Assembly (NCBI GenBank): GCA_964447125.1
Contig: CAYUSL010000001.1
Coordinates: 1-55,250 of the forward strand
Direction of reading: 5' to 3'
Length of the DNA stretch: 55,250 bases
DNA from: an uncultured bacterium
GTDB lineage: Bacteria > JADJOY01
Position numbers and translations under genes: made by a program. The notes under the pieces were generated by a model. The model searched no databases. It worked only from the letters and a program-made list of their open reading frames with translations, and had not been told where the DNA came from. This document shows, piece by piece, positions 10,833-27,248 of this stretch (position 1 is its first letter; every line of letters begins with the position of its first letter).

Positions 10833-10839
10833 GCAGCTC

Positions 10840-12155: not shown

Positions 12156-12170
12156 GCGTGTGCCGCGAGG

Positions 12171-13016
12171 CTACCCGGCGCTCACGTCGAGCGAGAACCG
12201 CGTCCATTCGCGCGTCACCCGAAAACCGATTCCGGTGAGGGTTTCGATGGGGAGCTCGTCGCGTCCGAGCCGCGGAATCCGGAGCCAGCGTGCACCGAGG
12301 CTCGCGAGCGTCGCCAGCAGCGGTGTCACGGCGGCCGAATCTCCGGGTGCGCCGAGGGCCGCGATGGAGATCTCCTCGCCCGACACGCTCGTCTCGTACA
12401 GGCAGAAGGCCTCGACGCGATCGGAGTGGATCGCCAAGGCCTGAAGTTGCGGCGCGCGGCGGGCCAGTGCTTCGGGTGCTCGCATCCACGACTCCCGGGA
12501 TCCCATGCTGCACGTCCTCGAAAGCTCGTCGAAGCCGACGGGAGCGGCGAGCTCGGGGAGGTGTCCCTCTTCTGCGCGCATGGCGTCGCCATCGAGGACG
12601 AGGTCCACGAGCGTCCCAGTCGCGCCGAATCCGCAGGCGGTGAGCAGCGCCCGGGTGGCCTGGTCGCGGGAGTCGATCTCCATCGTCAGGCGCGGCGGCC
12701 CCAAAATCGCGAGCTTTCGCGCGAGCGATTCGAGAAGGTGGCGCGCGTGTCCGCGGCGTCGCTGCGCGGGGTGCACGCCCAGGGCGAGGATGCAGGTTTC
12801 CGCCGCTCGCTTGGCTGCGAGCAAGACGCCGATGGGGCCGCGCTCGTCGAAGGCCAGCATCGAGCTCGACGTCCAGAAATCGACGAGACGGCCGCGCCGC
12901 TTCAGCACTTCGGGCTCGAGGGGGGGCAGGCCTGGGATCTGCGATGCCAGGCAGTCGTTGTACGCGTGCGCGAGCGCGCCGACGTCGTCGGTCCGGCAGA
13001 ACCGGTAGCCGGGCAT
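12171..13016 (-). CDS. GNAT-family N-acetyltransferase (possibly a tandem GNAT fold)
   Basis: 281 aa. It shows the acetyl-CoA motif A-like LALGVHPAQRRRGHARHLLESL. Its size is compatible with two GNAT lobes. Confidence 0.65.
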   Translation of the reverse strand: MPGYRFCRTDDVGALAHAYNDCLASQIPGLPPLEPEVLKRRGRLVDFWTSSSMLAFDERGPIGVLLAAKRAAETCILALGVHPAQRRRGHARHLLESLARKLAILGPPRLTMEIDSRDQATRALLTACGFGATGTLVDLVLDGDAMRAEEGHLPELAAPVGFDELSRTCSMGSRESWMRAPEALARRAPQLQALAIHSDRVEAFCLYETSVSGEEISIAALGAPGDSAAVTPLLATLASLGARWLRIPRLGRDELPIETLTGIGFRVTREWTRFSLDVSAG

Positions 13017-13062
13017 CGTGGCGTGGGCTAGAGCGGGCGGCGCGCTGCGATGGCGATGCGGG

Positions 13063-15117
13063 TCAGTCGCTGGCGCCAGGGCTGCCCTGTCGCATCGCGT
13101 GCAGCGCGCCCATGATGCCCACCTCGTTGAGGGGCGCGGCTGCAGCGCCCGACAGGCCGGCTGCGGTCGACGGCGCCACCGTGGCGGCGCGACGGGCGGC
13201 CTCGGGATTCGCGGCGTAGCCCTGGATCATCTCCGCCATCGCCTGGCGGCTCGCGGCGATCGCTTCCTCGGTCAGCACCAGGTCGATCACCACGCTGTTC
13301 CGCTCTTCCGCGAGCGCCTCGATCCGTTCCTGCGTCTTGCTTCGCATGAAACCCGCAGGGACGCGGAACAGGCGCTGCACCGCGTCCTCCGTCCATTTTC
13401 GCGTCGAGAAGAGCGGGTTCTTCTTGTCGTCGCGCGCCACGAGCTTCTTGCCGTCATCGAGCGTCAGCGCCTCGTCTCGGCTCGAAGATCCGTTCGGCTC
13501 GCGATCGCCGAGCTCGATCGGCGTTCCCAGCTCGTCCTCGATGATGCTGCGCGCGAGCTCCAGCGTCACGGTATTGAGCCGCTTGAGCCGCACCGACTTC
13601 TCGATTCGGGCTTTGGTGCGGCGGCGTTGGTACGGCTCCTTGAGCGTCCACAGCGCACGTTTGGCATCCTGAGTCCAGGTGAGCGAGCGTCCGTCGTAGG
13701 TGGTCTCGCTCTCCGCACCGCCTTCCATGCGGATGATCTCGGCCACCTGTGCTGCGCTGATCCGATCGAACACGCTGGAGCCGCACACGGCACACTTCGC
13801 TGGCTCCTCTTCGGTCGCGGTCACGCCGCAGCTCCGGCAGATCGCCACCGCGTGATCCTTGGCGCGCTCGAGGACCAACGCCTCCGCGAACTTGGTGGTC
13901 GCCTCGGCGGTGGCCTTGGGCATGTACCGATCCATGGCCTCGTCGAGAAGCGAGCTGGTGATGACGCTGTGGCCCTGCTCGACGGCGAGGCGGTAGATCG
14001 CGGTGCGCGCGATGCCCTGCACGAGTGGCGGGACGTTCTTCATGCGCCCTTCCGCTTCCGGCGTCCAGCGGATGGTCTCCTCGGCCTTCACGTCGAGCTC
14101 GGGATGCTCGAGGCGCGTGGTGAGCAGCACGTTGCAAGGCGCCTGGCGCAGCATGTTTTCCGTGTTGCTGCCGAGCGCACGCTCGTCGGCGCCGCTGTGC
14201 ACGCCGATGCGGCCGAGCACCAGGAGCCACGGACGAGTCTTGCGCACGTGATCCAGCAGTTTCTGGAATGCCTTGCCGTCGAGCAGGGTGCGGGTGATCT
14301 CGAAACCCGCGGCGTGGGCCATGTGCTCGGCGACCTTGAGGTGCGACTCGTAGATCTGCGCCAGGCCGGTGTCGATGATCTCTTCGTGGAGCTGGTTCTG
14401 CTCCTCGAAACGAAACACCTTCGCCGCCTTCTCGGTGAGAACGTCGACCACGCTGGCGAAGACCGAGTAGTGCAGGTAGGGATCGTAGACGGCCACGGCT
14501 TCGACCTGCTTGCCGAGCTGCTTCGCCAGGTCGATGGCCGTCATCAGCGCCCCGAAGGATTGGGGGCTGCCGTCGATCCCCACCAGGATCGTGTCGCTCG
14601 TCTGCGCGCGGGTTCCGTCTTTCTCCGGCACGTCCTTGATGACGAGCACGTCGCGCGCCGTGCCACGCACCACGCGCTCGCACACCGACCCGATCTGGCT
14701 GTCGCGCACGCGTCCCAGGCCCAGCGCGCCGAGGACGATCAGGCCGTAGTCGTGCGCTTCGATGTCGCGCAGCAGCTCGACCGAGTGCTTGCCGTCCATC
14801 ATGCGCGGCTCGAACGGAAGCCCGGCCTCGGCGCAGACCTCGGCCATCGGAGCGAGGTAGCTGTCGGAGATGAGCTTGAGGCCCATCGTGATCAAGCTGT
14901 CGTGAATCTTGCGTTGGCGATCGAGCTCGTTCTCCTCGAGGTACTCCTCGGGAAGCGTGAACTCCATCTGTTTGAAGCGATAGTCGTGCATGCGCGCGGC
15001 ATAGACGTGGCAGCCCACCATCCTGCTCGTGAATGCCTTGCCGAGCGCGACACCGAGTGCAATCGCCTCGTTCGAGTGGGGCGAGTTGTCCACCGGTACG
15101 TAGATCGTGTCGTACAT
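13063..15117 (-). CDS. Tandem universal-stress-protein (USP) domains fused to three PCP_red domains and a zinc ribbon
   Basis: The start is trimmed from the 824-aa ORF to the ATG at 15117 (MYDTIYVPVDNSPHS), which has GGAGGG 5 nt upstream and lies downstream of the 15153 stop of the upstream gene. USP signatures appear twice (IYVPVDNS...GLIVLGALG...VLVIK and ILVGIDGS...LLVLGRIG...NVLL). PCP_red-like repeats are IRWTPEAEGRMKNVPPLVQGIARTAIYRLAVEQGHSVI, LTWTQDAKRALWTLKEPYQRRRTKARIEKSVRLKRLNTV and RKWTEDAVQRLFRVPAGFMRSKTQERIEALAEERNSVVI. The zinc ribbon is CRSCG-x12-CAVCG. Confidence 0.8.
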   Translation of the reverse strand: MYDTIYVPVDNSPHSNEAIALGVALGKAFTSRMVGCHVYAARMHDYRFKQMEFTLPEEYLEENELDRQRKIHDSLITMGLKLISDSYLAPMAEVCAEAGLPFEPRMMDGKHSVELLRDIEAHDYGLIVLGALGLGRVRDSQIGSVCERVVRGTARDVLVIKDVPEKDGTRAQTSDTILVGIDGSPQSFGALMTAIDLAKQLGKQVEAVAVYDPYLHYSVFASVVDVLTEKAAKVFRFEEQNQLHEEIIDTGLAQIYESHLKVAEHMAHAAGFEITRTLLDGKAFQKLLDHVRKTRPWLLVLGRIGVHSGADERALGSNTENMLRQAPCNVLLTTRLEHPELDVKAEETIRWTPEAEGRMKNVPPLVQGIARTAIYRLAVEQGHSVITSSLLDEAMDRYMPKATAEATTKFAEALVLERAKDHAVAICRSCGVTATEEEPAKCAVCGSSVFDRISAAQVAEIIRMEGGAESETTYDGRSLTWTQDAKRALWTLKEPYQRRRTKARIEKSVRLKRLNTVTLELARSIIEDELGTPIELGDREPNGSSSRDEALTLDDGKKLVARDDKKNPLFSTRKWTEDAVQRLFRVPAGFMRSKTQERIEALAEERNSVVIDLVLTEEAIAASRQAMAEMIQGYAANPEAARRAATVAPSTAAGLSGAAAAPLNEVGIMGALHAMRQGSPGASD

Positions 15118-15152: not shown

Positions 15153-16829
15153 TCACACCGTGCTGCGGCGTCGCCGCGCCACCGCGATCACCACCAGCTC
15201 GACTGCGAGAACCGAGCCCGCCGCCTTCGCCATCGGACCAAGCGGAGACTCGTGGGCGCCCGCTTCCACGTAGAGGTAATACCAGGCTGTGAGCCCACGC
15301 TTGTTGCCGCGCTCTCGATTGAACCCGTCCCAGACGCTGAACGCGACCGGCGTGAACTTGCCTTCCTCGAGATGGGCGCCTCCGCGACTGCGCAGGGGAC
15401 GGACGAACGTCACCGTCCAGCGGCCCTTCTCGTATTGCTTCGTAACCTGCAGGTCGCCGCTGCCCTGGGGTTCCAGTGCTTCGTATCCCTTGCCCACGAA
15501 TTGCAGCGGCTTCGAGTGGGCGAGGTCTACGAACCAAAGGTCGACTGCATGCCCCGAGTCGCCGAAGATGAAATACGGGCGTCGGATGCTGGTCTCTGCG
15601 TCGAGCGGAAACTGGATCGCCACCGCATCCGAGAACTCGGTCTCGGGAGTCTGGGCCGCCGCGCTCGGCTGAGACTCGCCTTCGCCCCAGAAGTCGTCGC
15701 CGCCCGACGCCGGTTTCGTTGCCGCGGGAGCATCTGCGGCCTCGTCGCCCCAGATGTCACCAGATTCCGCGCTGCTGGCCTTGGCTTGCCCGCCGAAAGG
15801 ATCGTCCTTCCAATCCGGGACCTTCAGCGCTGGATCGTTCTTGCCGCTGGTCTCGGCGCGCATGTCGCTCCAACGCAGACGCACGGCCAGATCGGTGCCG
15901 TTGTGGACCGCCGTCACCTCGATCCCGTTGCAGGACGGATGGAACTCGCGCCCAGGTTGGGAGATCTGGCCGGCCACCGGAAAGAACGCGGGCTCGGCTG
16001 CGGCGAAGAGCTCGTCGGCCTTCGCGAGGTCGAGCTCGCCCGTGATGCGCGCGACGCGTGCCAGGTTGGAGTAGTTGGGCTGCTCGCGCCCGGAGAGCGA
16101 CGCGATGAAATCGACGAGCTGCCAACGCTGCTCTTCGCTCAACGCCTCCTGGAATGCCGGCATCGGCGTCCCGGTGAGGCCGGTGGTGATGGCGCGAAAG
16201 ATGTCGGCGCGCGTCGCGCCGCCGCGGAACGTCCAGGGCCGTTCGAGGTTGGCGGGATGGAGGTGGTTCCCCCAGTCGTCCTTGAGGGTCGGTGCGGACG
16301 GGCCGTCGCCGCGCCCCTCCACGCCGTGGCAGCGCGCACAGCCGGTGTCGGCGTAGAGCTGCTTGCCCTGCTCGGCACGCTCTTTCGAGAACGCCGGCGG
16401 CGCGGGCAACGAAACGGGATCCGAATTCGACTCGGCGTCGGCGAAGCGCGGTGAAAAACTCTTCACGTAGAAGGCGAGCGAACGAACCTCGTCCTCCTTG
16501 AAGCTCGGCCAGGCGGGCATGGTGCTGTAGGGCATCCCGTGGCGGATGATTCGCTCCAGGTCCGCTGTGGTCGGCACCGTGCCGCCGGGTGTGCTGCGGA
16601 TCTTGAACTTGCCCTTGGTGAAGTCGCGTGGCTTGGGCTTGAGATGGGCTGCGGCGACCCCTTCGCCATCTCCCTTCTCGCCGTGGCATTGGCTGCAGTA
16701 CTTGTCGTAAAGCTGCTTGCCGGCGTCCCGCTGCGCCGGCGTTCCGAGATCCGGCGTCGCGGCCGCGGCGAGGCGTAGCCCCGCAACCAGGCTGAGGCCA
16801 CAGAGTGCCGAGACACGCAGCGCTTTCAT
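15153..16829 (-). CDS. Diheme cytochrome c fused to an ethylbenzene-dehydrogenase gamma/DOMON-like (EB_dh) domain, with a C-terminal membrane anchor
   Basis: The start is trimmed to the ATG at 16829 (MKALRVSALCGLSLVAG, a signal peptide), which overlaps the upstream stop as ATGA. Heme motifs are CSQCHGEKGDGEG and CARCHGVEGRGDG. The C-terminal region ...VDLWFVDL...GRWTVTFVRPL...FSVWDG...ERGN.RGLT.WYYLYVE is typical of the EB_dh heme-b domain. The terminal hydrophobic helix is SVLAVELVVIAVARRRR. Confidence 0.75.
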   Translation of the reverse strand: MKALRVSALCGLSLVAGLRLAAAATPDLGTPAQRDAGKQLYDKYCSQCHGEKGDGEGVAAAHLKPKPRDFTKGKFKIRSTPGGTVPTTADLERIIRHGMPYSTMPAWPSFKEDEVRSLAFYVKSFSPRFADAESNSDPVSLPAPPAFSKERAEQGKQLYADTGCARCHGVEGRGDGPSAPTLKDDWGNHLHPANLERPWTFRGGATRADIFRAITTGLTGTPMPAFQEALSEEQRWQLVDFIASLSGREQPNYSNLARVARITGELDLAKADELFAAAEPAFFPVAGQISQPGREFHPSCNGIEVTAVHNGTDLAVRLRWSDMRAETSGKNDPALKVPDWKDDPFGGQAKASSAESGDIWGDEAADAPAATKPASGGDDFWGEGESQPSAAAQTPETEFSDAVAIQFPLDAETSIRRPYFIFGDSGHAVDLWFVDLAHSKPLQFVGKGYEALEPQGSGDLQVTKQYEKGRWTVTFVRPLRSRGGAHLEEGKFTPVAFSVWDGFNRERGNKRGLTAWYYLYVEAGAHESPLGPMAKAAGSVLAVELVVIAVARRRRSTV

Positions 16830-17647
16830 TCTTTGGCGCCGTGCTCTTCGAGAGCTCTGGGTTTCATGCCGGTGAAGTCGTACAGAAAGAGGAGGGCTTC
16901 CCACATCTCGTCGTTGCTCAGGAACTTCTCCCAGGGCGGCATCGCCGAGTCCCCAGGCCCGCCCTCGTCGGGCATGCCCGGACCACCCTTCGAGACGCGC
17001 CAGAAGAAAAAGGACGACTGAAAGTTGGGTAGCACGTTGGGGTCGGTGAAGTTGGTCGGGAGTGGGTTGAAGCCGTGTGCGAAGACTCCATCACCGCCCA
17101 GACCGTCCCCGTGACAATAGAAGCAGTTTTGATAGTACACGGTTCGGCCGCTGGTTAGGTGGCGCTGATACGCCTCGGGCTCCGTGTCCTTGAGGTGGCG
17201 AAAGGGGTTTTCGGTCTTGATCAGATCGACCGCAGCGTCGTGAACGGTGATGCTGGTCGGTGGCGAGGGGTGGATCGTCCGGGCGAAGAACGGTGCCTCG
17301 ACCGGCGCCGTCCGGCTTCGATACACGTCGTAGGCGACGAACGCGGGAATCGCCAGCGTCACCAGCGCCAACGCGGGTGTGTAGCGGGGCTCGGTGAGGA
17401 GCTTGCCGATCGGGCCGACCACCGCTTCGGTCCGATCGCGGGAGCTGAACGCGTAGATGAAGAGCGCGAGCGTGGTGATCGACAGGTAGATTTGGACGGC
17501 CGAGGCGGGAACCGGTGTGCTGAACGCCCAATTCACGAACACGAACACCGAGAGCCAGCAGGCCCCCAGCCAAACGAGAAGCGCGGGTTTTGCAAACCGC
17601 AGAGCGAGCAGCACCGCGACGATGCCGGCGATGACGATGAAATTCAC
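16826..17647 (-). CDS. Polytopic membrane domain fused to a class-I monoheme cytochrome c
   Basis: 273 aa, GTG start. It has 3-4 N-terminal helices, then NCFYCHGDGLGGDG (CxxCH), and SAMPPWEKFLSNDEMWEALLFLYDF (the Met ligand region). Confidence 0.75.
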   Translation of the reverse strand: MNFIVIAGIVAVLLALRFAKPALLVWLGACWLSVFVFVNWAFSTPVPASAVQIYLSITTLALFIYAFSSRDRTEAVVGPIGKLLTEPRYTPALALVTLAIPAFVAYDVYRSRTAPVEAPFFARTIHPSPPTSITVHDAAVDLIKTENPFRHLKDTEPEAYQRHLTSGRTVYYQNCFYCHGDGLGGDGVFAHGFNPLPTNFTDPNVLPNFQSSFFFWRVSKGGPGMPDEGGPGDSAMPPWEKFLSNDEMWEALLFLYDFTGMKPRALEEHGAKE

Positions 17648-17689: not shown

Positions 17690-18181
17690 TCAGTCCGCCT
17701 TCGATCGGTGCTTGTGCGTGGTCTTGAGCGTCACGTTGGGCGTGCCGCCCTGGCTCTGAAGCCAGGCCATGACGGCGAGGATTTCTTCGTCCGTGAGGCC
17801 GATTGGCGGCTTGTTGATGGTCGGCATGCCTTTGTTGAAGCCGGGCACGATGTAGGCATCCGGCTCGTAGAGCGATTCGGAGAAGTAGTCGATGTCGCTG
17901 TAGCCCGGCTTGCGCGTCTTGGCGCGTTCGCCGACACCTTGCAGATCGGGATAGCGGAGCGCACCCGTCTTGCCGATGGTGTGACAGGTCAGGCACATGC
18001 CTTTGTCGTGGGCGATCTCGTCGCCGATCTTCACGAGATCGGCGGTGGTCATGTCCTTGGTGATCTTCACGTCCGCTGGTGGCTGAAGTTCCTTCTGCGG
18101 CACGAGCTGCCCGACGTACGTGTAGAAACCCGTCGTTGCCACCACCAAGACCAGCACGTTGACCACCGGCGGCACCTTCAC
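17690..18181 (-). CDS. Membrane-anchored monoheme cytochrome c
   Basis: 163 aa. The GTG start overlaps the cydA-like stop as GTGA. It has one N-terminal helix, CLTCH, and a downstream GMP (Met ligand candidate) ... EEILAVMAWL. Confidence 0.75.
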   Translation of the reverse strand: MKVPPVVNVLVLVVATTGFYTYVGQLVPQKELQPPADVKITKDMTTADLVKIGDEIAHDKGMCLTCHTIGKTGALRYPDLQGVGERAKTRKPGYSDIDYFSESLYEPDAYIVPGFNKGMPTINKPPIGLTDEEILAVMAWLQSQGGTPNVTLKTTHKHRSKAD

Positions 18182-20037
18182 GCGGCACCTCCGTGGGGGC
18201 CGTGCCCGGTGCCGCCCTCACGGTTTCCCCAATCGGGGGCGTGCGAGAGGCTCGCGAGCCAGAACACCATGCCGATCAGCGCAAAGAAGATCAGCACGGT
18301 GACCGATACGACCTTGGTCGCGAAACCGAGTGTCGGGGTGAAGGCGTCGACCGAGGTGTCGCGGATGACACCATAGACGTGCCAGTGCTGGCGCAGACCG
18401 GAGCGCACGTAGCCCATGAGCCCCATGAGCCACGTGAACGTGACCGCGATGAAGATCAGGATGTATTGAGAGAGCGGGGGCATGCGCCCCCAGCGCGTCT
18501 CACCCGTCGACTGCGCACCGCGATAGAGCGGCACGTCGATGACGGTGATGCTCACCATTGCCGCCAACACCGCGAGCACCTGGTACGCCGAGTAGCCGAT
18601 TCGCACCTTCGCTTCGACGAAATAGCCGTGAATGCCGAAGAAGATCACCCACGCGGCAGCGGCGAAGAAGAGCGCGAATTGGATGAGGTTTGCCGTGGTC
18701 GCCCACGGTTGCACCGAGCGCTTTCCGCTGCGCCTGTAGAGCAGGAAGCTCATGAACGTCGTCAGGATGAGGATGTTCACCGCAGTGTTCTTCGCCGACA
18801 TCACGCCGAGGAAGCCGAGCATCGGATGCGTCGATCCGCGCATCGCCTTCACTTCCGACGCCGTGGAGATGATCGAGCGGGGCGTGGCCCACACCGCGAA
18901 GCACAGCGCGATCGTGATGAGCAGGTACTTGATGAATTTCTGGAACGGCTGCGCGCCCTCGATTCGTCCCATGCCCAGCCACAGATAGGCGTTGGCTGCG
19001 AGGAACAAGTTGCCGATGAGCACCGCCTGGATGATGAAGAGCCATGAGAACGCTCCGCCCATCATCATGATGCCGAGTGCCTGGTTGAAGCCGTAGATCT
19101 CGCGCGCCAGGTAGTAACCGGCGAAGGGCAGAGGCAGGAACGCCAGGATGGCCACGAAGTTGCCGATGTAGCCCATCCAGTCGTAATGGGCGCGCTCTTC
19201 GTCGGTCTTGGCTCCCAGGTATTGGAACGCCGCATACGCCGCCGCGACCGAACCGCCGAACGCGACGTTGGCGATGAGGCGGTGAACGTTGATGGGCATC
19301 CAGGTGAAGTTCATCGCGGCTTCCATCACGTTCAACACCGCGCCGGAGTCGGAAACGCCGGCGGGCGACATCATGAACGAGACCCACGAGTTCGCGATGA
19401 ACATGATCGCGGTGCCCACCAGGTTGAGGCCCACGCCGAGGCCGATGTGCACCAGCGGATGAAACTTTCCCCAGCCGTAGTAGTAGCTGTAGAGGAAGAA
19501 CGCTTCCGCGAAGAAGAGCCCGACGTAAGGCGCGAAGGTCGGGCTGAAGACGCTCATCAAGTAAGTCGTGAACTTCGGATAGAGCGCGATCAGCAGGAAC
19601 GTCAGCATCGCGCCGAAGGTGGCGGTGATCGAGAACGACACCGACAAGAGCTTCGTGAACTCGTACGCGAGCCGGTCGTAACGTGTGTCCTTGGTGGCGT
19701 AGCCGATGATCTCGATGATGATCGCGAACATCGGCACCGCGAGCACGAACGCGGCGAAGAGCAGGTGAAGCTGCGCTGCCACCCACACGGCGACTCGGCT
19801 GCCGACCACCGGGAACTTGCGGTACTCGACTTCCTTGTAAGGCGTGGCCTTGGCGTCGGCCGCTTGCTTCTGGGCGAGGTCGTGCTCGGCTTGCTGGCGC
19901 GGCGTCGTCGCCTCGCTGAGGCCGCGCGTCGGTGGGTGGTAGGCGCGGTGCTCGAGCTGCATCCAGACGCCCACGAGCGAGCCGAGCCCGAGCACCACGG
20001 CGATCACCGCCATCGGCACGAGCACGCGAGGCTTCAC
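18178..20037 (-). CDS. Cytochrome bd superfamily subunit-I-like (CydA-like) protein, about 14 helices, no Q-loop-sized insert
   Basis: The start is trimmed to the GTG at 20037, which has GGAGAG 3 nt upstream and overlaps the actE1 stop as GTGA; the ATG at 20013 is an alternative. The segment VWVAAQLHLLFAAFVLAVPMFAIIIEIIGY...LLSVSFSITATFGAMLTF...YVGLFFAEAFFLYSYYYGWGKF...NVHRLIANVAFGGSVAAAYAAFQYL is colinear with CydA helices 1-5. It includes the helix-1 His and helix-5 His positions and a Glu aligned with E. coli E107. No hydrophilic stretch longer than about 30 aa occurs after helix 1. Confidence 0.75.
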   Translation of the reverse strand: MKPRVLVPMAVIAVVLGLGSLVGVWMQLEHRAYHPPTRGLSEATTPRQQAEHDLAQKQAADAKATPYKEVEYRKFPVVGSRVAVWVAAQLHLLFAAFVLAVPMFAIIIEIIGYATKDTRYDRLAYEFTKLLSVSFSITATFGAMLTFLLIALYPKFTTYLMSVFSPTFAPYVGLFFAEAFFLYSYYYGWGKFHPLVHIGLGVGLNLVGTAIMFIANSWVSFMMSPAGVSDSGAVLNVMEAAMNFTWMPINVHRLIANVAFGGSVAAAYAAFQYLGAKTDEERAHYDWMGYIGNFVAILAFLPLPFAGYYLAREIYGFNQALGIMMMGGAFSWLFIIQAVLIGNLFLAANAYLWLGMGRIEGAQPFQKFIKYLLITIALCFAVWATPRSIISTASEVKAMRGSTHPMLGFLGVMSAKNTAVNILILTTFMSFLLYRRSGKRSVQPWATTANLIQFALFFAAAAWVIFFGIHGYFVEAKVRIGYSAYQVLAVLAAMVSITVIDVPLYRGAQSTGETRWGRMPPLSQYILIFIAVTFTWLMGLMGYVRSGLRQHWHVYGVIRDTSVDAFTPTLGFATKVVSVTVLIFFALIGMVFWLASLSHAPDWGNREGGTGHGPHGGAA

Positions 20038-20633
20038 GGGCTCTCCTGGCGCTCGAGCTCGCGCACGAAGGCAACGATCGCCCAGCGGTCTTGGGTCGGC
20101 ACGGGCCAGCGGTAGGACGGCATCAGCCCCGAACCGTTCGTGATCACGTCGAAGAGCTGACCGTCCGGCATGTTCACGATCTTGTCGGAGTGCATGCTGG
20201 GCGTCGGCACGTTTCCGCGCTCGTAGAGAATGCCTTTGCCCGTGCCGCGGCTGTCGTGGCACGGCGCGCAGTAGATCGCGAAGCGATCGCGCCCGCGTGC
20301 AACGACCGTGGCGTCGTTGCCGATCGGGTTGGTCGCGACGAAGGCACCGCCGACGTCCTTACCCGTGTGGATCGTGGGATTCACGTGCAGCTCGCCACGG
20401 GCGATTGTCCCAGGCACGGGTGGGCGCATCGTTCCGCCGTCGTAAAAGAAGGCACTCTCGGACTGGGGGTCGTAGCGCGGCTGATAATCCATGCTGGGAT
20501 TCAGGTGGATCGGCTCCCGGCTCGAGGTGCAGCCGCGCGCGCAGCCGCTCGAGGCCAGCGCCAGCGACGCGACGCCGAGGCAGGTGGCGATCCACGCGCA
20601 CCGGCGTCGCAAGGTGAGTTGCTCTCGGCGCAT
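20034..20633 (-). CDS. actE: ACIII subunit ActE (lipoprotein monoheme cytochrome c), copy 1
   Basis: The start is trimmed to the ATG at 20633, 4 nt after the actB1 stop. It has the lipobox LASSGC and CAPCH. It aligns with the actE at 32961 (RF.IYC.PCHD..G.GKG... FDVI..G.G.MP.Y...P..DRWAI.A). Confidence 0.8.
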   Translation of the reverse strand: MRREQLTLRRRCAWIATCLGVASLALASSGCARGCTSSREPIHLNPSMDYQPRYDPQSESAFFYDGGTMRPPVPGTIARGELHVNPTIHTGKDVGGAFVATNPIGNDATVVARGRDRFAIYCAPCHDSRGTGKGILYERGNVPTPSMHSDKIVNMPDGQLFDVITNGSGLMPSYRWPVPTQDRWAIVAFVRELERQESP

Positions 20634-20637
20634 GCGC

Positions 20638-23600
20638 TCAGGCCTTGTCGAGATCCGGATTGGGATTCCGGATGCGCGCGAGGTACGAGGTGCGCGGCTT
20701 GGTGTTGAGCTCGGCGAGCAGGTCGTAGTTGCGCGGGCTGGTCTTCGCGACGGCGACGCGGCTCTTCGGGTCGCGGATGTCGCCGAACTCGATCGCGCGC
20801 GCAGGGCAAGCCTGCTGGCAGGCCGTGCGGACGTCACCGTCGGCGAGCGCCCGGTTCTCGAGCTTCGCCTGTTGCCGGCCGGCGCTGATTCGCTGCAGAC
20901 AGTACGTGCATTTTTCCATCACGCCGCGTGCCCGAACCGTGACGTTCGGATTCATCGCCATCTTCAGCGTTTCGGGCGTGTCTTTGGTGAAGTTGTAATA
21001 GTTGAAGCGCCGCACCTTGTACGGACAGTTGTTCGAGCAATAACGCGTACCGATGCAGCGGTTGTAGACCATGGCGTTGAGGCCGTGATCGTCGTGCACG
21101 GTCGCAGCCACCGGACACACCTGCTCGCAAGGCGCGTTCTCGCATTGCATGCAGGGAATGGGCTGGACGACCATCGCTTCCGGGTCGTCGGGATCGCCGC
21201 GGAAGTAGCGGTCGACGCGGATCCAATGCAGCTCGCGACCTCGGCGCACTTGGTCGCGGCCGACTGCAGGGATGTTGTTCTCCGCCTGGCACGCCGTGAC
21301 GCAGGCGTTGCAGCCGGTACAGACGTTCAAGTCGATGGTCATGCCCCATTGGGGGCCGTCCGCGTACGCGCGCTCCTGCCACAACGATTCCAGCGGCGGG
21401 TGCTCGACCATCTCCTTGGCGAACTCGGGCTCGTGCTGGAACTCCGCGAGGGTCGCCTCGCGAATCAACGTGGGGACACGTCGATCGCGTTCCTTCGCAC
21501 CGAGCTCGTCGATGATCCAATGATCCTGGGTGATGGCCAGCTCTGCGGTGCGGCTCAGTCGCTCGATTCGCGCTGAAGCCGCTCCCGCCAGGGTCTTCGT
21601 GGTTCGCAGGCGATACGCATCGGCCCCGACCATCGATCCGACCCGCCCGGCGGCCTCGCGGCCGTAACCGAGCGCGATCGTGACGGTGTGCTCGGCCTGA
21701 CCCGGGCTGATCACCACGGGGATCTCGATCTTCGCGTCGCCGACGGCGATGACCACCAGGTCTTCGTCGGTCACGCCCAATGCGCGTGCCGTTGCATAGC
21801 TCAGGAGTGCGGCGTTGCCCCAAGTGAGCTTGGTGGTCAGGTCGGGTAGCTCTTGCAGCCAAGAGATGTTGGCGAATCGGCCGTCGTAGACGGTGAACGA
21901 CGGCACGAACGTCAGCTCGATCGCTTCTGCCGTGGGCGGAGGAAGCGAGTCCGTGAGCGTTGCCGGCGCGGCGGCTCCTGCAGGAAGCGACTCGAGCTCG
22001 TTGGCAGTCGCGCTCGCTTCGAGCAGGCCGTCGTGCAGCACCCGTTCCCAGCGCGAATCGAGCTCGGAGTCGCCGAGGATGCCGCGCCAGGTTTCGCGCA
22101 CGAGGTCGTAGCCACTCGTGAGCTCCGCCTTTGCTGGGTCGGCGGCGAACGCGCCGAGCAGCTCGGCGACGGAACGGGCGCCGTGCAGCGGCAGCACGAG
22201 CGGCTGCACCACGCTGAGCGTGCCGTCGGCTGCGGCCGCGTCACCCCAGCTCTCCAGGAAATGAGCGAGCGGCAGGTGCCAGTGGGCGAGGGCTGACGTC
22301 TCGTCGACTTTCGCGCCAGCACGAATACACGTGGTCACTTTGGCGACGGCCTTCGTGAAGTCGAGGTCGCTCGGGGCGTCGTACGCGGGATTCCCGCCGA
22401 GGATCACGAGCGTGGAGACCTCACCCGACTGGATCGCCGAGACCAGCGCCGTCAGCTCGCCGAGCACCGAACGCGCGGCATGCCGGGGTGCCCTGTGGGT
22501 GAGCGTGGTTCCGAGATTGCCGAGGGCGGCGTTGATCGCGAGCACCCACGCATGGACGGCCGGTGGTAGATGGGCGCCAGCCACGACCACGCTGCGTCCG
22601 CGATTCGCCAGCAGATCTTTCGCCGCAGCAGCGATCCAACGTGCATCGACGTCTTCGCCTGAAACAGCCGGTGCCCCGAGACCAAGCTCGCGCGCCAGCA
22701 GTGCGACGACCGCAGGCATGCGACCGCGGCGCAATCGCAAGCGATGATCGGCGAGGCCGCCGGTGGCTGTGAAAGAGCTTTCGACGACGTAGAGCCGGTT
22801 GAGGTCCGGGGCGCTCGAGGTCTCGTGGTCCGTGGCGGGCAACACAGCGCGCCGGGCCGCGAAACCACCGGTGTTGCGCACCGTTTCGAGATCGGTGCCG
22901 AACGGATCGGCGTCGATGGCCACCACCACTCGGGCGCGTTGGTAATCGACGAGCGCTTCGAGCGCGCGCCCCGTGACGGCGGCGACTGCGCTCCGCTGGT
23001 GCTCGTCGCTGAGCGGCTCGTAGGTCGCCCAGCGCGCTCGCGGATAGACCTCGAGGAAGCGCGTCCGCAGGCGCGCGAGCGTCGGCGACGTGAATGGCTC
23101 GCCCAGCACTGCGAGGCCCGCGCCCTCGCTGGCACGCAGCGATGCCGCTTGGCTGCGCCAGAACCCGTCGAAATCCGTCCAGCTCGAGGGCGCACCGCTC
23201 TTGCGCACCGGACCGGCGCGATCGGGATCGTAGAGATCGTAGATTGCGGCCTGCATCCACGCGCTCGAAGCGCCGCGGGTCGCTGGATGCAGCTCGTTCC
23301 CTTCGATCTTGGTGGGCCGCCCCTCGTGGCTCTCGACGACCAGCCCGTAGGCACTCCTGCCGAACGGCATGGTGGTGGCGTAGCGGCGTGGCACGCCGGG
23401 CAGGATCTCTTCCGGCGGCTTGACGTACGGAACGATCTTTTCGAGTGGGCGGCGACACGCGGTCAGCCCCGCGATCGAGAGCGTCGCTCCCGTGAGCCCG
23501 AGCATGTGCCGTCGCGAGACGACGTCGGGCGGTGAATCAGCTCCCGCTGGAAACTCGGGCGAAGCCGCGCTCTCTGCGCCGCGTGAGGATTCGAGTGCCG

Positions 23601-23652
23601 CGACGCTGCGCCAGTAGGCGGCGCTTCGCGCGGGGCCTGGTGAGCTCGTCAT
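20638..23652 (-). CDS. actB: ACIII subunit ActB (molybdopterin-oxidoreductase-like domain plus Fe-S ferredoxin domain), copy 1
   Basis: About 1004 aa. The ATG at 23652 overlaps the actA1 stop as ATGA, the same arrangement as in copy 2. It has the Tat-like SRRHMLGLTGATLSIAGLTAC. Fe-S motifs are CTGCNACVTACQAEN, CMQCENAPCEQVCP, CIGTRYCSNNCPYKVRRFN, CTYCLQRI and ACQQACP. It is colinear with the ActB at 27970. Confidence 0.9.
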   Translation of the reverse strand: MTSSPGPARSAAYWRSVAALESSRGAESAASPEFPAGADSPPDVVSRRHMLGLTGATLSIAGLTACRRPLEKIVPYVKPPEEILPGVPRRYATTMPFGRSAYGLVVESHEGRPTKIEGNELHPATRGASSAWMQAAIYDLYDPDRAGPVRKSGAPSSWTDFDGFWRSQAASLRASEGAGLAVLGEPFTSPTLARLRTRFLEVYPRARWATYEPLSDEHQRSAVAAVTGRALEALVDYQRARVVVAIDADPFGTDLETVRNTGGFAARRAVLPATDHETSSAPDLNRLYVVESSFTATGGLADHRLRLRRGRMPAVVALLARELGLGAPAVSGEDVDARWIAAAAKDLLANRGRSVVVAGAHLPPAVHAWVLAINAALGNLGTTLTHRAPRHAARSVLGELTALVSAIQSGEVSTLVILGGNPAYDAPSDLDFTKAVAKVTTCIRAGAKVDETSALAHWHLPLAHFLESWGDAAAADGTLSVVQPLVLPLHGARSVAELLGAFAADPAKAELTSGYDLVRETWRGILGDSELDSRWERVLHDGLLEASATANELESLPAGAAAPATLTDSLPPPTAEAIELTFVPSFTVYDGRFANISWLQELPDLTTKLTWGNAALLSYATARALGVTDEDLVVIAVGDAKIEIPVVISPGQAEHTVTIALGYGREAAGRVGSMVGADAYRLRTTKTLAGAASARIERLSRTAELAITQDHWIIDELGAKERDRRVPTLIREATLAEFQHEPEFAKEMVEHPPLESLWQERAYADGPQWGMTIDLNVCTGCNACVTACQAENNIPAVGRDQVRRGRELHWIRVDRYFRGDPDDPEAMVVQPIPCMQCENAPCEQVCPVAATVHDDHGLNAMVYNRCIGTRYCSNNCPYKVRRFNYYNFTKDTPETLKMAMNPNVTVRARGVMEKCTYCLQRISAGRQQAKLENRALADGDVRTACQQACPARAIEFGDIRDPKSRVAVAKTSPRNYDLLAELNTKPRTSYLARIRNPNPDLDKA

Positions 23653-24311
23653 CGATGGCACCCCGAGCAGTCGACGGGAGGCTCTAGGTGCTTCTCGGCG
23701 ATGATCCGTTCGCCGGCGCTGCGCTGATCAGGCGGCGCCTGCCAGCGCATGTTCGTCACCTGCTCGGTAGGACGCAGGTGTGGCGCTGGATCGCGATGGC
23801 AGTCGAGGCACCAACTCATGCTGAGAGGCTCGGCTTGCGTGACGACCTCCATCTGATCGACGCGACCGTGGCATTCGACGCAGCCGACACCTGCGCGCAC
23901 GTGCATTGCGTGATGGAAGAACGCGAAGTCCGGCAGGTTGTGCACGCGCACCCACTGCATGGGCTGGCCGGATGCGTAGCTGGCACGGATGGGCGCCAGA
24001 AGCGCGCTATCGCGTTTCACCACCGCGTGGCAGTTCATGCAGACCTGCGTGGGTGGAACGTTCGCAACCGCCGATCGCTCGACCGACGCGTGACAGTACT
24101 TGCAGTCGATGCCGAGATCGCCGGCGTGCAAGCGATGACTGTACGGGACCGGCTGTCGGGGGGCGAAGCCGACGTCCGTGTAACGCGGCGAGAAGTAGTA
24201 CCAGACGACGCCGATGATCAGGGTCGTGGCGACGAGACCACCGGCCGCCAATGCCAGCGCGGCTCGATTGCTCGATTCCGGAAACACCTGCGCCAAGCGC
24301 TCGACCCCCAA
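23649..24311 (-). CDS. actA: ACIII subunit ActA (membrane-anchored pentaheme cytochrome c), copy 1
   Basis: Five CxxCH motifs (CKYCH, CMNCH, CVECH, CLDCH, CSGCH) and one N-terminal helix. The ORF-track start at 24311 is TTG. A TTG at 24296 would give MAQVF..., parallel to the MAQIF... of copy 2, so the start is uncertain. Confidence 0.85.
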   Translation of the reverse strand: MGVERLAQVFPESSNRAALALAAGGLVATTLIIGVVWYYFSPRYTDVGFAPRQPVPYSHRLHAGDLGIDCKYCHASVERSAVANVPPTQVCMNCHAVVKRDSALLAPIRASYASGQPMQWVRVHNLPDFAFFHHAMHVRAGVGCVECHGRVDQMEVVTQAEPLSMSWCLDCHRDPAPHLRPTEQVTNMRWQAPPDQRSAGERIIAEKHLEPPVDCSGCHR

Positions 24312-24418: not shown

Positions 24419-24576
24419 CAACGACGAATGGGCCGCGAGTGTAGAGCCGCTCGGGAGCGCAGGTCAACTCTGAGTTCACCATCTCGTAACGTTCACCTGT
24501 CGACGAGCAGGCACCGAACCGTAACTGACGACAAAACGAGCGCGCACTCACGCTGCGCGCAGATGGCGAGCGTTGG

Positions 24577-24888
24577 ATGACATCTGCGTCCGTGCGCACG
24601 GGGGAAGAGGCGACGCTCGCTGCGGCGCAGGTTCGCTTCGTGCAGCGTGCATTGCGTCGAAAACAGCTCTTCTTGGCGCTGAGCGTGATCGGCGTCGTCG
24701 TCGGCGTGGGGCTCACGGTGCTCTACACGGTGCTGCGCGTGCGCAACCCGCACTTCGAGATCGGCGCCCGCGCCGTGATCGTCGTTTTGGTGTTGCTCAA
24801 CGCTCGCCAGAATCTGCGTCAGTACCGCTACGCCGAGGTCCTCGAAAAGGCGTTCGGGACGCGCCCGGACGATCTGCGCGCGGCATGA
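24577..24888 (+). CDS. Small two-helix membrane protein, function unknown
   Basis: 103 aa with hydrophobic spans LFLALSVIGVVVGVGLTVLYTVL and ARAVIVVLVLL. Its stop overlaps the SCO1 start as ATGA. Confidence 0.45.
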   Translation: MTSASVRTGEEATLAAAQVRFVQRALRRKQLFLALSVIGVVVGVGLTVLYTVLRVRNPHFEIGARAVIVVLVLLNARQNLRQYRYAEVLEKAFGTRPDDLRAA

Positions 24889-25532: not shown

Positions 25533-25556
25533 CTCGAGGGCCGGATCCAAGCCGAG

Positions 25557-26990: not shown

Positions 26991-27204
26991 ATCCGCGCGT
27001 GTCGTCCTCGCTGGACGGGGCGCGGAGGGGTCGATGAGGATGGGGTGGGGCGAGGCGCTCTTCACGTCCCTCGGTGGTTCCACGTGCGGCGATCGTGGCT
27101 GAGTTGACACAGCGCGTTGTTTGGCGATACACGCCTCGAAGTCAGCGACACAAGTGTGACCCACGTTACGGATTTGCCGCTGCGGCTGGGAGAAACTCAC
27201 ACAG

Positions 27205-27233
27205 TTGATTTCATCATGTGCACGATGTATACT
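27205..27233 (+). promoter_or_regulatory. Candidate sigma70-type promoter of the complete act-caa3 operon
   Basis: TTGATT (27205-27210), a 17-nt spacer, then TATACT (27228-27233). It lies in a conspicuously AT-rich patch about 90 nt upstream of actA2. Confidence 0.4.
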
Positions 27234-27248
27234 GTATACATTCGTGCA
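27219..27248. promoter_or_regulatory. Candidate operator: a 17-bp perfect palindrome with extended arms, overlapping the -10 element
   Basis: ATGTATAC-T-GTATACAT (27225-27241) is a perfect 8-1-8 palindrome. The flanking TGCACG (27219-27224) and CGTGCA (27243-27248) extend it to 30 bp with one bulged T. Confidence 0.45.

What the first reader, a model, noticed from the sequence alone, without database searches (positions are those of the whole stretch)
18178..20037. CydA-like protein with about 14 helices, no Q-loop-sized insert, no CydB, and flanked on both sides by c-type cytochromes
**Observed.**
- Helices 1-5 are colinear with CydA.
- The helix-1 His is present in AAQLHLLF.
- A Glu lies in FFAEAFF, where E. 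coli CydA has E107. The position aligned to E99 appears to be Pro.
- The helix-5 His is present in NVHRLIANV.
- After helix 6, the next helix follows within about 15 residues.
- No hydrophilic stretch longer than about 30 aa exists downstream of helix 1. Quinol-oxidising CydA proteins carry a long periplasmic Q-loop between helices 6 and 7.
- The protein also has an extra N-terminal helix with a ~50-aa polar linker.
- Four or five additional C-terminal helices include a His cluster (RQHWHVYG).
- The downstream gene is a cytochrome c, not cydB.

**Inferred.**
- The electron donor is probably not quinol. It is more likely the neighbouring c-type hemes or the ActABE module.
- The extra helices may substitute for CydB.
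- From memory, CydB-less bd-like proteins of about 14 helices have been proposed as oxidases in Nitrospira genomes.
- Also from memory, phylogenomic surveys of the bd superfamily report families that lack the quinol site.
- I cannot tell whether an ActAB-linked member has been described.
Basis: partly seen in the sequence, partly recalled or inferred. Interest (0 to 1): 0.8.

Follow-up and report, generated by a model that had tools for sequence, protein, structure and literature searches.

The report
Quinol-site-less bd-like oxidase wired to ActABE
This gene encodes a membrane protein of the known but never purified "bd-like" (OR-N2) branch of the cytochrome bd oxidases, and here, as in many related Acidobacteriota genomes, it sits in one operon with spare copies of three alternative complex III subunits, a pairing I could not find described.

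Summary
Window 20037..18178 (-) encodes a 619-aa CydA homologue. Only its N-terminal half matches the CydA Pfam model. It has about 14 helices, no Q-loop, no CxxCH motif and no cydB partner, and cytochrome c genes overlap both of its ends.

It is not a new kind of protein. Residue signature and spacing place it in the OR-N2 subfamily of Murali et al. 2021, the 14-helix "bd-like oxidase" of Nitrospira and Nitrospina. Its architecture was already described in 2013. The downstream genes (two monohaem cytochromes c, then a dihaem c fused to an EbdC-like domain) match the published OR-N2 operon.

What looks undescribed is upstream. Dedicated paralogues of ActA, ActB and ActE (42-46% identical to the canonical ACIII in the same window) precede the gene, with no NrfD-type ActC/ActF. 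About 90% of the 80 best related loci keep this order.

The best reading is a cytochrome-c-fed O2-reducing membrane subunit of a multihaem/FeS complex. O2 reduction is inferred, not shown.

One correction: the "extra C-terminal helices" are internal insertions, and RQHWHVYG corresponds to CydA's GRQPW loop.

Novelty: new variant of a known kind. Interest is moderate.

The parts
18178..20037 (-). OR-N2-type cytochrome bd-like protein (CydA homologue), 619 aa, about 14 TM. Candidate haem and channel residues: H91, Y171, E178, H197, H252, M413/N417, S546, W552, H553.
   Evidence: Pfam PF01654 over residues 80-314. PDB CydA sequence hits. AF2 pLDDT 89.3 with Foldseek top 10 all CydA. Signature and spacing equal the OR-N2 reference. 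Residue conservation.
23649..24311 (-). ActA' : membrane-anchored pentahaem cytochrome c, paralogue of ACIII ActA
   Evidence: Five CxxCH motifs. 45% identity to the canonical ActA at 27308..27973. Pfam multihaem families. QrcA-like in NCBIfam. Conserved upstream of the bd-like gene and closer to this copy than to canonical ActA in 54 of 55 loci.
20638..23661 (-). ActB' : TAT-exported molybdopterin-like plus four-cluster FeS protein, paralogue of ACIII ActB
   Evidence: PDB 6f0k_B (R. marinus ACIII subunit B) at E 4.6e-271. 46% identity over the full length to canonical ActB, with all Cys motifs kept. TIGR04519 TAT signal, QrcB/QrcC-like. Orthologous set in 66 of 68 loci.
20034..20633 (-). ActE' : monohaem cytochrome c with an N-terminal Cys (ActE is lipid-anchored in ACIII), paralogue of ACIII ActE. 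Its stop overlaps the bd-like start (GTGA).
   Evidence: One CAPCH motif and an ATG at 20633, 4 nt after the ActB' stop. 42% identity to canonical ActE. Present directly upstream in about 90% of loci with enough flank. An ActE'-bd-like fusion exists in P0109.
17690..18181 (-). cyc1: N-terminally anchored monohaem cytochrome c. Its start overlaps the bd-like stop.
   Evidence: CLTCH motif. Pfam Cytochrom_C. Conserved in all loci with flank. Fused to the bd-like protein in P0121, 41% identity.
16826..17647 (-). cyc2: four-TM domain plus C-terminal monohaem cytochrome c
   Evidence: CFYCH motif. Four hydrophobic segments. Pfam Cytochrome_CBB3. Conserved synteny. No similarity to ActD.
15153..16829 (-). 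Dihaem cytochrome c fused to an EbdC-like (EB_dh) domain, with a signal peptide and a C-terminal TM helix
   Evidence: Two CxxCH motifs. Pfam EB_dh at 2.3e-18. TIGR03477 DMSO_red_II_gam. PDB 6h5l_B at 5e-53 and 2ivf_C at 7e-13. The EbdC Met108 equivalent is Phe and the Lys201 equivalent is variable.
13063..15117 (-). USP x2 + PCP_red x2 protein, a conserved neighbour (possible regulator or accessory)
   Evidence: Pfam Usp and PCP_red. Conserved after the EbdC-like gene in most loci. Start at 15117.
9459..13016 (-). Accessory genes often conserved downstream: GNAT, Mrp/NUBPL FeS-transfer ATPase, small PCP_red protein, AhbD/NirJ2-like radical SAM-SPASM-PCP_red
   Evidence: Pfam and NCBIfam hits. 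Found in 30-60 of the 80 loci, depending on the gene.

Best explanation
The gene encodes the membrane catalytic subunit of an OR-N2-type "cytochrome bd-like" complex. This is the same kind as Nitrospira NIDE0901 and, by gene content, Manganitrophus TO_1.

**What is shown**
- The protein keeps the CydA four-helix core.
- It keeps His91, the ligand of the O2-side haem (E. coli H19).
- It keeps the His252/Met413 pair, the low-spin haem b558 ligands (H186/M393).
- It keeps part of the proton path: Glu178 (E107) and His197 (H126).
- The quinol-oxidising Q-loop is replaced by hydrophobic helices.
- There is no CydB.

**What is inferred**
- Electrons do not come from quinol at this subunit.
- That operon carries ten c-haems in all and the four FeS clusters of ActB'.
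- O2 is reduced at the His91 haem.

**The ActA'B'E' set**
- In this lineage the operon has a dedicated copy of the periplasmic ActA-ActB-ActE wire of alternative complex III, without the quinol-binding ActC/ActF subunits.
- Most likely this wire couples the complex to an upstream donor.
- Candidate donors are the canonical ACIII membrane module encoded nearby, another cytochrome c, or an unidentified quinol site.

Family, architecture and operon are shown. O2 reduction, the identity of the donor and the physical assembly are inferred.
For: **Family**
- PF01654 scores above its cut-off on the N-terminal half only.
- CydA is the best match by sequence and by structure. Foldseek's top 10 hits are all CydA, E 5e-10 to 6e-7, from a model with pLDDT 89.3.

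**OR-N2 assignment**
- Every signature position of Murali Table S6 is matched: H, Y, E, Y, Y, H, H, M/N, S, W.
- The spacings H186eq-M393eq 161, M-N 4, N-S 129 and S-W 6 are identical to the OR-N2 reference and differ from OR-N1.
- Identity is 46% to fragment P0235, which matches 7 of the OR-N2 reference positions in exact numbering. Identity is 35% to P0164, which matches 7 of the OR-N1 reference positions.
[quoted passage not shown] That is exactly what lies downstream here.

**No quinol site and no partner**
- TM6 ends at residue 300 and the next helix starts at 303.
- No CydB or CydA' was found in the window or within 10 kb in 80 loci.

**Selection**
- Mean column identity is 77% over 84 homologues.
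- 565 GTDB species genomes encode a relative.

**Operon**
- Start and stop codons overlap or lie 4 nt apart across ActB'-ActE'-bdl-cyc1 and across cyc2-EbdC-like.
- The gene order ActA'-ActB'-ActE'-bdl-cyc1-cyc2-EbdC-like-USP is kept in nearly all loci with enough flank.
- The Act' genes form an orthologous set distinct from canonical ActABE.

**Cytochrome c as partner**
- P0121 is a natural fusion of bd-like + cyc1-like + a second cytochrome c.
- P0109 is an ActE'-bd-like fusion.

**Literature**
- OR-N enzymes are proposed to be cytochrome-c-oxidising O2 reductases (PMC10839748; PMC12342949).
- TO_1 (bd-like + two cytochromes c + a periplasmic cytochrome b) was the most highly expressed terminal oxidase complex in Manganitrophus.
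Against: - No OR-N enzyme has been purified or assayed. No paper in the searchable library reports it.
- Two residues tied to the di-haem O2 site in canonical enzymes are replaced: E99 by Tyr171 and E445 by Ser546. A third haem is therefore uncertain.
- Homologous bd-like genes occur in the strict anaerobe Kuenenia (PMC3578206), so O2 reduction is not guaranteed.
- ActB' without ActC has no known way to receive electrons from quinol. The role of ActA'B'E' is therefore conjecture.
- About 10% of related loci lack the dedicated Act' set and sit behind a canonical ACIII-caa3 cluster instead.
- The EbdC-like domain lacks the Met/Lys haem b ligands of EbdC, so one link of the proposed wire may not carry haem.
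- The host already has two haem-copper oxidases in this window.
Confidence: 0.6

Rival explanations
1. The bd-like protein does not reduce O2. It is the membrane, quinone-interacting partner that replaces ActC/ActF for the ActA'B'E' arm. The operon then encodes a variant alternative complex III (quinol:cytochrome c oxidoreductase, or its reverse). The inserted helices would provide a new quinone site.
For: - ActA'B'E' are conserved with the gene, and no NrfD-type subunit is in the operon.
- Lucker et al. 2013 raised this possibility for bd-like proteins, noting homologues in anaerobic Kuenenia.
- E99 and E445 are replaced.
- Related OR-N2 genes sit beside Rieske/cytochrome b genes in other lineages. 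That shows a recurrent link to complex-III-type modules.
Against: - No Q-loop or known quinol residues.
- No detectable similarity of the protein to ActC: hhalign probability 0.4%.
- His91 and the E107/H126-equivalent channel residues, which serve the O2 site in CydA, stay nearly invariant.
- About 10% of loci lack the Act' genes yet keep bdl-cyc1-cyc2-EbdC-like.
Confidence: 0.17
2. The operon encodes a self-contained quinol:O2 supercomplex. A new quinol site, at the bd-like insert helices, the 4-TM domain of cyc2 or their interface with ActB', feeds the FeS and haem wire. The same bd-like subunit then reduces O2.
For: - All seven products are membrane-anchored or exported.
- ACIII forms supercomplexes with oxidases in other bacteria, and oxidase genes commonly follow act genes (PMC12342949).
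- The [3Fe-4S]-type Cys motifs of ActB are kept.
Against: - No sequence evidence for any quinol site.
- It rests on a site nobody has seen.
- Canonical ACIII copies with ActC exist in the same window and could supply electrons through cytochrome c.
Confidence: 0.12
3. The complex reduces or detoxifies something other than O2 at the His91 haem, for example NO, H2O2 or another periplasmic oxidant. It would be a stress-response system rather than a respiratory oxidase.
For: - Canonical bd oxidases also act in NO and peroxide defence (discussed in PMC10839748).
- A universal-stress-protein gene is a conserved neighbour.
- The active-site residues E99 and E445 are changed.
Against: - There is no positive evidence for any alternative substrate.
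- The size and conservation of the electron-transfer apparatus suggest a main respiratory route.
Confidence: 0.08
4. It is an ordinary cytochrome bd ubiquinol oxidase subunit I, as public annotation calls it.
For: Source names for homologues read "cytochrome ubiquinol oxidase subunit I" or "cytochrome bd-type quinol oxidase subunit 1". There is a Pfam PF01654 hit.
Against: - The Pfam match stops at profile position 237 of 418.
- No Q-loop.
- 14-15 helices instead of 9.
- E99 and E445 are replaced.
- No cydB in the window or in 80 loci.
Confidence: 0.02

Closest known systems
OR-N2 subfamily of the cytochrome bd superfamily (Murali, Gennis & Hemp 2021). This is the Nitrospira defluvii NIDE0901-type "bd-like oxidase". 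By gene content it also matches Ca. Manganitrophus TO_1.
   Same: - About 14 helices, with the Q-loop replaced by membrane helices.
- Signature H/Y/E/Y/Y/H/H/M-N/S/W with identical spacing.
- No adjacent CydB or CydA'.
- An operon with two cytochromes c and an EbdC-like subunit.
   Different: - The host is Acidobacteriota-like, not Nitrospirota. Identity to Nitrospirota representatives is only about 35-46%.
- The operon is extended upstream by ActA'B'E'.
- The EbdC-like domain is fused to a dihaem cytochrome c and lacks the Met/Lys ligands.
- The organism also has haem-copper oxidases.
Canonical cytochrome bd quinol oxidase CydAB(X) (qOR1-3; E. coli, Geobacillus and Mycobacterium structures)
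   Same: - The fold of the first six helices.
- The H19, H186/M393, E107 and H126 equivalents.
- The GRQPW-like loop before the last helix.
   Different: - No Q-loop or quinol site, and no CydB.
- An extra N-terminal helix and four to five inserted helices.
- E99 is Tyr and E445 is Ser.
- The proposed donor is cytochrome c, not quinol.
Alternative complex III (ActABCDEF), often clustered with an oxidase. This includes ACIII(actABCDE)+OR-N5 in Nitrospirales and TO_3 in Manganitrophus.
   Same: - Pentahaem ActA, ActB with four FeS motifs and a TAT signal, and monohaem ActE.
- An oxidase-type gene follows directly downstream.
   Different: - The NrfD-type quinol and proton subunits ActC/ActF, and ActD, are absent from this operon.
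- The partner is a single OR-N2 protein rather than an OR-N5a/b pair or a haem-copper oxidase.
- The Act' genes are a separate orthologous lineage.
OR-C family (CydA with fused C-terminal haem c domains)
   Same: - No quinol site, with cytochrome c as the presumed donor.
- Some relatives of this protein carry fused cytochrome c domains.
   Different: - This protein has no CxxCH, about 14 rather than 8 helices, and OR-N-type signature residues.

Membership tests
Cytochrome bd superfamily (CydA fold) | Significant match to the CydA sequence model | tested here: met
   PF01654 at 79.4 bits against a cut-off of 26.2, residues 80-314. 55 of 65 family members also match.
Cytochrome bd superfamily (CydA fold) | Structural similarity to solved CydA | tested here: met
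   AF2 model with pLDDT 89.3. Foldseek's top 10 PDB hits are all CydA, E 5e-10 to 6e-7, TM (target) 0.51-0.58.
Cytochrome bd superfamily (CydA fold) | Conserved His ligand of the active-site haem (E. coli H19) | tested here: met
   His91, invariant in 84 close homologues and present in 32 of 39 distant ones.
Canonical quinol-oxidising cytochrome bd (qOR, CydAB) | Periplasmic Q-loop / quinol site between TM6 and TM7 | tested here: not met
   Helix 279-300 is followed by a helix from residue 303. The Pfam match ends at profile 237 of 418.
Canonical quinol-oxidising cytochrome bd (qOR, CydAB) | Adjacent cydB (subunit II) | tested here: not met
   The operon genes are all accounted for. No further TM-rich ORF in the window is unassigned. 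No second CydA-like hit in 80 loci.
Canonical quinol-oxidising cytochrome bd (qOR, CydAB) | Glu at the E99 and E445 positions | tested here: not met
   Tyr171 and Ser546.
OR-N2 subfamily (Murali et al. 2021) | About 14 TM helices with no quinol site | tested here: met
   14-15 long helices in the AF2 model. The hydropathy scan of the 619-aa protein gave 17 overlapping peak windows that merge into about 11 separate hydrophobic regions, so the helix count rests on the model.
OR-N2 subfamily (Murali et al. 2021) | Table S6 signature: H19=H, E99=Y, E107=E, F114/F116=Y/Y, H126=H, H186=H, M393=M(+N), E445=S, W=W | tested here: met
   H91, Y171, E178, Y185, Y187, H197, H252, M413/N417, S546, W552. 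The spacings 161/4/129/6 are identical to the reference. OR-N1 differs: Gly at E107 and a spacing of 178.
OR-N2 subfamily (Murali et al. 2021) | Operon with several cytochromes c and an EbdC homologue | tested here: met
   cyc1, cyc2 and the dihaem c + EB_dh domain lie directly downstream and are conserved.
OR-N2 subfamily (Murali et al. 2021) | Placement inside the OR-N2 clade with the authors' tree or HMMs | not tested
   The reference sequences and HMMs were not available. Indirect evidence only: 46% identity to P0235, which matches 7 OR-N2 reference positions in exact numbering, against 35% to the OR-N1-like P0164.
OR-N2 subfamily (Murali et al. 2021) | O2 reductase activity with a non-quinol donor | not testable with these tools
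   No biochemical data exist for any OR-N member in the searched literature.
OR-C family | CxxCH haem c motif(s) within the CydA polypeptide | tested here: not met
   No C..CH motif in the 619-aa protein.
Alternative complex III (operon level) | ActA pentahaem, ActB FeS/molybdopterin-like, ActE monohaem | tested here: met
   Five CxxCH motifs. 6f0k_B at E 4.6e-271. 45/46/42% identity to the canonical ActA/B/E of the window.
Alternative complex III (operon level) | NrfD-type quinol-oxidising ActC (and ActF), plus ActD | tested here: not met
   No NrfD-like ORF lies between 24311 and 13063. bd-like against ActC gives hhalign probability 0.4%. cyc2 against ActD shows no similarity.

The most novel reading that the evidence does not exclude
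ActA'B'E' plus the OR-N2 protein, cyc1, cyc2 and the EbdC-like subunit form one membrane supercomplex. In it the periplasmic arm of alternative complex III has been re-mounted on a bd-type membrane subunit in place of the NrfD-type ActC/ActF.

This would be either a self-contained quinol:O2 oxidoreductase with an unrecognised quinol site, or a wire that lets the FeS chain of ActB feed a bd-type O2 site. Either way it would be a third way of building an ACIII-oxidase machine, and it would be widespread in soil Acidobacteriota.
Probability: 0.25. Interest if true: 0.75.

Novelty: new variant of a known kind. Interest (0 to 1): 0.5.

Why it matters
OR-N "bd-like" proteins are thought to be the main terminal oxidases of Nitrospira, Nitrospina and Manganitrophus, organisms central to nitrification and manganese oxidation. 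Yet nobody has shown what they do or who donates electrons to them.

This locus shows three things about the same module:
- It is abundant and strongly conserved outside the nitrifiers: 565 species genomes, mostly Acidobacteriota.
- It works without a second CydA-like subunit.
- In most of these genomes it is tied to a dedicated ActA-ActB-ActE set that lacks any quinol-binding subunit.

That gives concrete, testable partners for the enzyme. It also offers aerobic heterotroph hosts that may be easier to grow than nitrifiers. Finally, it corrects a widespread annotation error, since these genes are labelled "cytochrome ubiquinol oxidase subunit I".

Tried and rejected
1. **First AF2 run.** With 84 close homologues (70-79% identity) it gave a poor model (pLDDT 60.8). 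It was replaced by a run on a diverse alignment.
2. **TM0 and the Act' genes.** I tested whether the extra N-terminal helix and linker correlate with presence of ActA'B'E'. They do not. A hydrophobic N-terminal segment is also present in the loci that lack them.
3. **Insert helices and ActC.** I tested whether the inserted helices are NrfD/ActC-like. hhalign probability was 0.4%.
4. **cyc2 and ActD.** I tested whether the 4-TM domain of cyc2 is ActD-like. There is no similarity.
5. **EbdC-like domain as cytochrome b.** I assumed it would be a periplasmic cytochrome b as in Nitrospirota TO_1. The pairwise alignments put Phe at EbdC Met108 and a variable K/R at Lys201, so I do not count a haem b there.
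6. **Gene contexts of distant representatives.** P0150, P0160, P0164 and P0121 were on short contigs or were orphan genes and added little. P0131 showed an OR-N1-like + Rieske + cytochrome b context.
7. **Exact-numbering search for reference sequences.** It gave only a 281-aa OR-N2-like fragment and one OR-N1-like protein, so no proper tree was built.
8. **Literature searches.** Searches for an ActAB-only + bd-like cluster, or for any structural or biochemical study of bd-like oxidases, found nothing. The library lacks most subscription journals and does not hold figures, so Figure 1 of Murali et al. could not be inspected.
9. **Model coordinates.** Haem-ligand geometry and the position of the extra helices relative to CydB could not be measured.

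Full report
**1. What is there**

The finding's coordinates hold a real gene on the minus strand, 20037..18178, 619 aa. It has a GTG start preceded by an AGGAG-like motif, and the start overlaps the stop of the upstream gene (GTGA). The product is identical to a deposited NCBI protein (P0001).

Pfam's CydA model (PF01654) matches well above threshold, at 79.4 bits against a cut-off of 26.2. The match covers only residues 80-314, which is model positions 2-237 of 418. PDB sequence search gives CydA chains, 9r2g_A at 3e-11 and 5doq_A at 5e-9, over the same N-terminal part.

A first AF2 model from close homologues was poor. A second one, from 65 sequences spanning 27-74% identity, is confident: pLDDT 89.3 and pTM 0.85. 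Foldseek's ten best PDB matches to it are all CydA, with E values from 5e-10 to 6e-7. CydB chains come far behind.

**2.

- His91 (AAQLHLLF), Glu178 (FFAEAFF) and His252 (NVHRLIANV) are present and invariant in the close family. They are largely conserved in distant relatives.
- The model has an N-terminal helix (3-30) and a 50-aa linker, followed by six CydA-like helices ending at residue 300.
- The next helix starts at residue 303, so no Q-loop exists.
- The longest polar stretch after helix 1 is about 29 aa.
- The protein has no CxxCH motif.
- No cydB or second cydA-like gene exists in the window. All 11 TM-rich ORFs were identified. None was found within 10 kb in 80 related loci.
- Cytochrome c genes abut both ends.

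Two details need correction.

- The E99-equivalent is Tyr171, not Pro170. This follows from the Geobacillus alignment and from Table S6.
- The extra helices are not a C-terminal add-on. The RQHWHVYG motif sits in the loop before the last helix and corresponds to the GRQPW loop of CydA TM8-TM9. The S546/W552 spacing equals the OR-N2 reference S563/W569.
- By parity and position, helix 413-436 (Met413 at its start) is the TM7 equivalent.
- Helices 521-548 and 570-597 are the TM8 and TM9 equivalents.
- The additional helices lie between TM6 and TM7 (303-326, 331-356, plus a short hydrophobic helix at ~363-383) and between TM7 and TM8 (446-471, 476-504).

**3. Which family**

The architecture is already in the literature. 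Lucker et al. 2013 (PMC3578206) describe bd-like oxidases with 14 helices, conserved N-terminal haem ligands, membrane helices in place of the Q-loop, and no quinol-binding residues.

Murali, Gennis and Hemp 2021 (bioRxiv 10.1101/2021.01.16.426971) divide the superfamily into qOR, OR-C and OR-N. OR-N1 and OR-N2 have 14 helices. [quoted passage not shown] All OR-N2 signature positions of their Table S6 are matched here: H91, Y171, E178, Y185, Y187, H197, H252, M413/N417, S546 and W552. The inter-residue spacings in the C-terminal two-thirds (161, 4, 129, 6) are identical to the OR-N2 reference. They differ from OR-N1, which also has Gly at the E107 position.

The protein is 46% identical to a fragment (P0235) that matches 7 OR-N2 reference positions in exact numbering. 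It is 35% identical to an OR-N1-like protein, P0164.

I therefore file it as an OR-N2 member. The caveat is that I could not run the authors' HMMs or tree.

**4. The operon**

Reading 5' to 3' on the minus strand, the genes are as follows.

- ActA' (24311..23649): five CxxCH motifs.
- ActB' (23661..20638): TAT signal, molybdopterin-like domain, four FeS Cys motifs.
- ActE' (20633..20034): one CxxCH.
- The bd-like gene (20037..18178).
- cyc1 (18181..17690): N-terminal anchor, one CxxCH.
- cyc2 (17647..16826): four TM helices, one CxxCH.
- A dihaem cytochrome c fused to an EB_dh/EbdC-like domain with a C-terminal TM helix (16829..15153).
- A USP/PCP_red protein (15117..13063).

Starts and stops overlap or lie 4 nt apart for ActB'-ActE'-bdl-cyc1 and for cyc2-EbdC-like, so the genes look translationally coupled.

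ActA', ActB' and ActE' are 45%, 46% and 42% identical to the canonical ActA, ActB and ActE of a complete ActABCDEF-SCO1-CoxBAC cluster. That cluster lies on the other strand of the same window, at 27308..39410. ActB' matches Rhodothermus ACIII subunit B at E 4.6e-271.

No NrfD-type gene (ActC/ActF) and no ActD lie in the bd-like operon.

**5. Conservation elsewhere**

- 7649 protein clusters match at E <= 1e-5. The best 120 are all 71% identical or more.
- 565 GTDB species genomes encode a relative.
- Among the 80 best loci, most are labelled Acidobacteriota (Vicinamibacteria, Thermoanaerobaculia, Polarisedimenticolia, Holophagae). A few are labelled Binatia, and a few carry other labels.
- In these 80 loci the order ActA'-ActB'-ActE'-bdl-cyc1-cyc2-EbdC-like-USP is kept wherever the contig is long enough.
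- The upstream Act genes score higher against this window's Act' copies than against its canonical copies in 66 of 68 (ActB), 54 of 55 (ActA) and 70 of 74 (ActE) cases. They are therefore a separate, co-inherited orthologous set.
- Seven loci lack them. In four of these (L032, L055, L073, L075) the bd-like cluster directly follows a canonical ActB-C-E-F/CoxA cluster on the same strand.
- In a more distant relative (P0131, 48% identity) the neighbours are a second bd-like gene, a Rieske protein and a cytochrome b. This is the Nitrospirota-type arrangement.

The OR-N2 module is thus repeatedly paired with a complex-III-type module. The ActA'B'E'-only pairing is the common acidobacterial form.

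I found papers describing ACIII(actABCDE)+OR-N5 in Nitrospirales (PMC12342949) and TO_3 in Manganitrophus. I found none describing ActA/B/E without ActC next to OR-N2. The search cannot see figures or most subscription journals.

**6. How it most likely works**

*Shown:*
- A CydA core with the H19, H186/M393, E107 and H126 equivalents.
- Loss of the quinol site.
- Loss of E99 and E445.
- No CydB.
- A tightly conserved operon of membrane-anchored c-type cytochromes and an FeS protein.

*Supporting physical association with cytochrome c:*
- A 56%-identical relative (P0121, 889 aa) is a natural fusion of the bd-like protein with a cyc1-like domain (41% identity) and a second cytochrome c domain.
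- Three of 65 family members carry Cytochrom_C domains.
- One record (P0109) fuses ActE' to the bd-like protein. That could be a frameshift at the GTGA overlap.

*Inferred:*
- Electrons enter the low-spin haem (His252/Met413) from periplasmic c-haems.
- O2 is reduced at the His91 haem.
- ActA'B'E' connect this module to an upstream donor.

Where ActB' gets electrons without ActC is unknown. The options are the rivals listed: the bd-like subunit as a quinone-interacting ActC substitute, an unrecognised quinol site, or sharing of the canonical ActC/F module.

The EbdC-like domain probably does not ligate haem b as EbdC does. It has Phe at Met108, in a conserved PYFIFGD motif, and a variable K/R at Lys201.

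No OR-N enzyme has been characterised biochemically in the literature I could search. O2 reduction therefore remains a hypothesis. Homologues in anaerobic Kuenenia are a warning.

**7. Verdict**

- The protein is a new member of a known, uncharacterised kind.
- The conserved ActA'B'E'-OR-N2 operon without ActC/F looks like an undescribed variant.
- Interest is moderate (0.5). It is not surprising as a protein. It is useful as a widely distributed, well-defined gene set for testing what OR-N enzymes do.

Noticed in passing
window 9459..15117 (-): Downstream of the operon, often conserved in related loci, lie five genes. They are a USP x2 + PCP_red x2 protein, a GNAT, an Mrp/NUBPL FeS-transfer ATPase, a small PCP_red protein, and an AhbD/NirJ2-like radical SAM-SPASM protein with a C-terminal PCP_red domain (TIGR04545 at 293 bits, below its cut-off of 500). 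Three proteins carry the tetrapyrrole-binding PCP_red domain next to a haem-rich operon. This hints at O2-independent haem supply or haem modification for the complex.
   Followed up: partly
window 15153..16037 (-), EB_dh domain of the dihaem c protein: The EbdC haem b ligands are not kept. Met108 aligns to Phe in a PYFIFGD motif conserved in 70 loci, and Lys201 aligns to a variable K/R. The "periplasmic cytochrome b" assumed for Nitrospirota TO_1 may not bind haem the same way here.
   Followed up: partly
window 16090..16730 (-), dihaem c part of the same protein: Residues 60-272 match PDB 6h5l_B ("Conserved hypothetical cytochrome protein") at E 5e-53. This is much stronger than any other cytochrome c hit.
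   Followed up: no
window 1220..9413 (+) and 24573..39410 (+): The window is a respiratory island.
- At the left end: an NrfD/ActC-like gene and an ActF-like gene, then COX1, COX3, COX4_pro and a COX2-like gene.
- In the middle: SCO1 and HemY.
- Further right: a complete ActABCDEF-SCO1-CoxBAC cluster, divergent from the bd-like operon.
   Followed up: partly
P0121 (L085) and P0109: Natural fusions exist. P0121 is bd-like + cyc1-like + a second cytochrome c (889 aa). P0109 is ActE' + bd-like (824 aa), a single record that could be a frameshift at the overlapping stop/start.
   Followed up: partly
L032, L055, L073, L075 (also L031, L045, L053): A minority of related loci lack the dedicated ActA'B'E'. 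In four of them the bd-like cluster follows a canonical ActB-C-E-F/CoxA cluster on the same strand.
   Followed up: partly
bd-like protein residues 404-405, 416, 553: His404-Pro405, Lys416 and His553 are conserved across distant OR-N relatives but have no assigned role in canonical CydA. They lie in periplasmic loops near the Met413 and S546/W552 positions. They are candidates for extra haem or metal ligands.
   Followed up: no
public annotation of homologues: Homologues are widely named "cytochrome ubiquinol oxidase subunit I" or "cytochrome bd-type quinol oxidase subunit 1". This is misleading for a protein without a quinol site or CydB. NCBIfam has no model for the family.
   Followed up: yes
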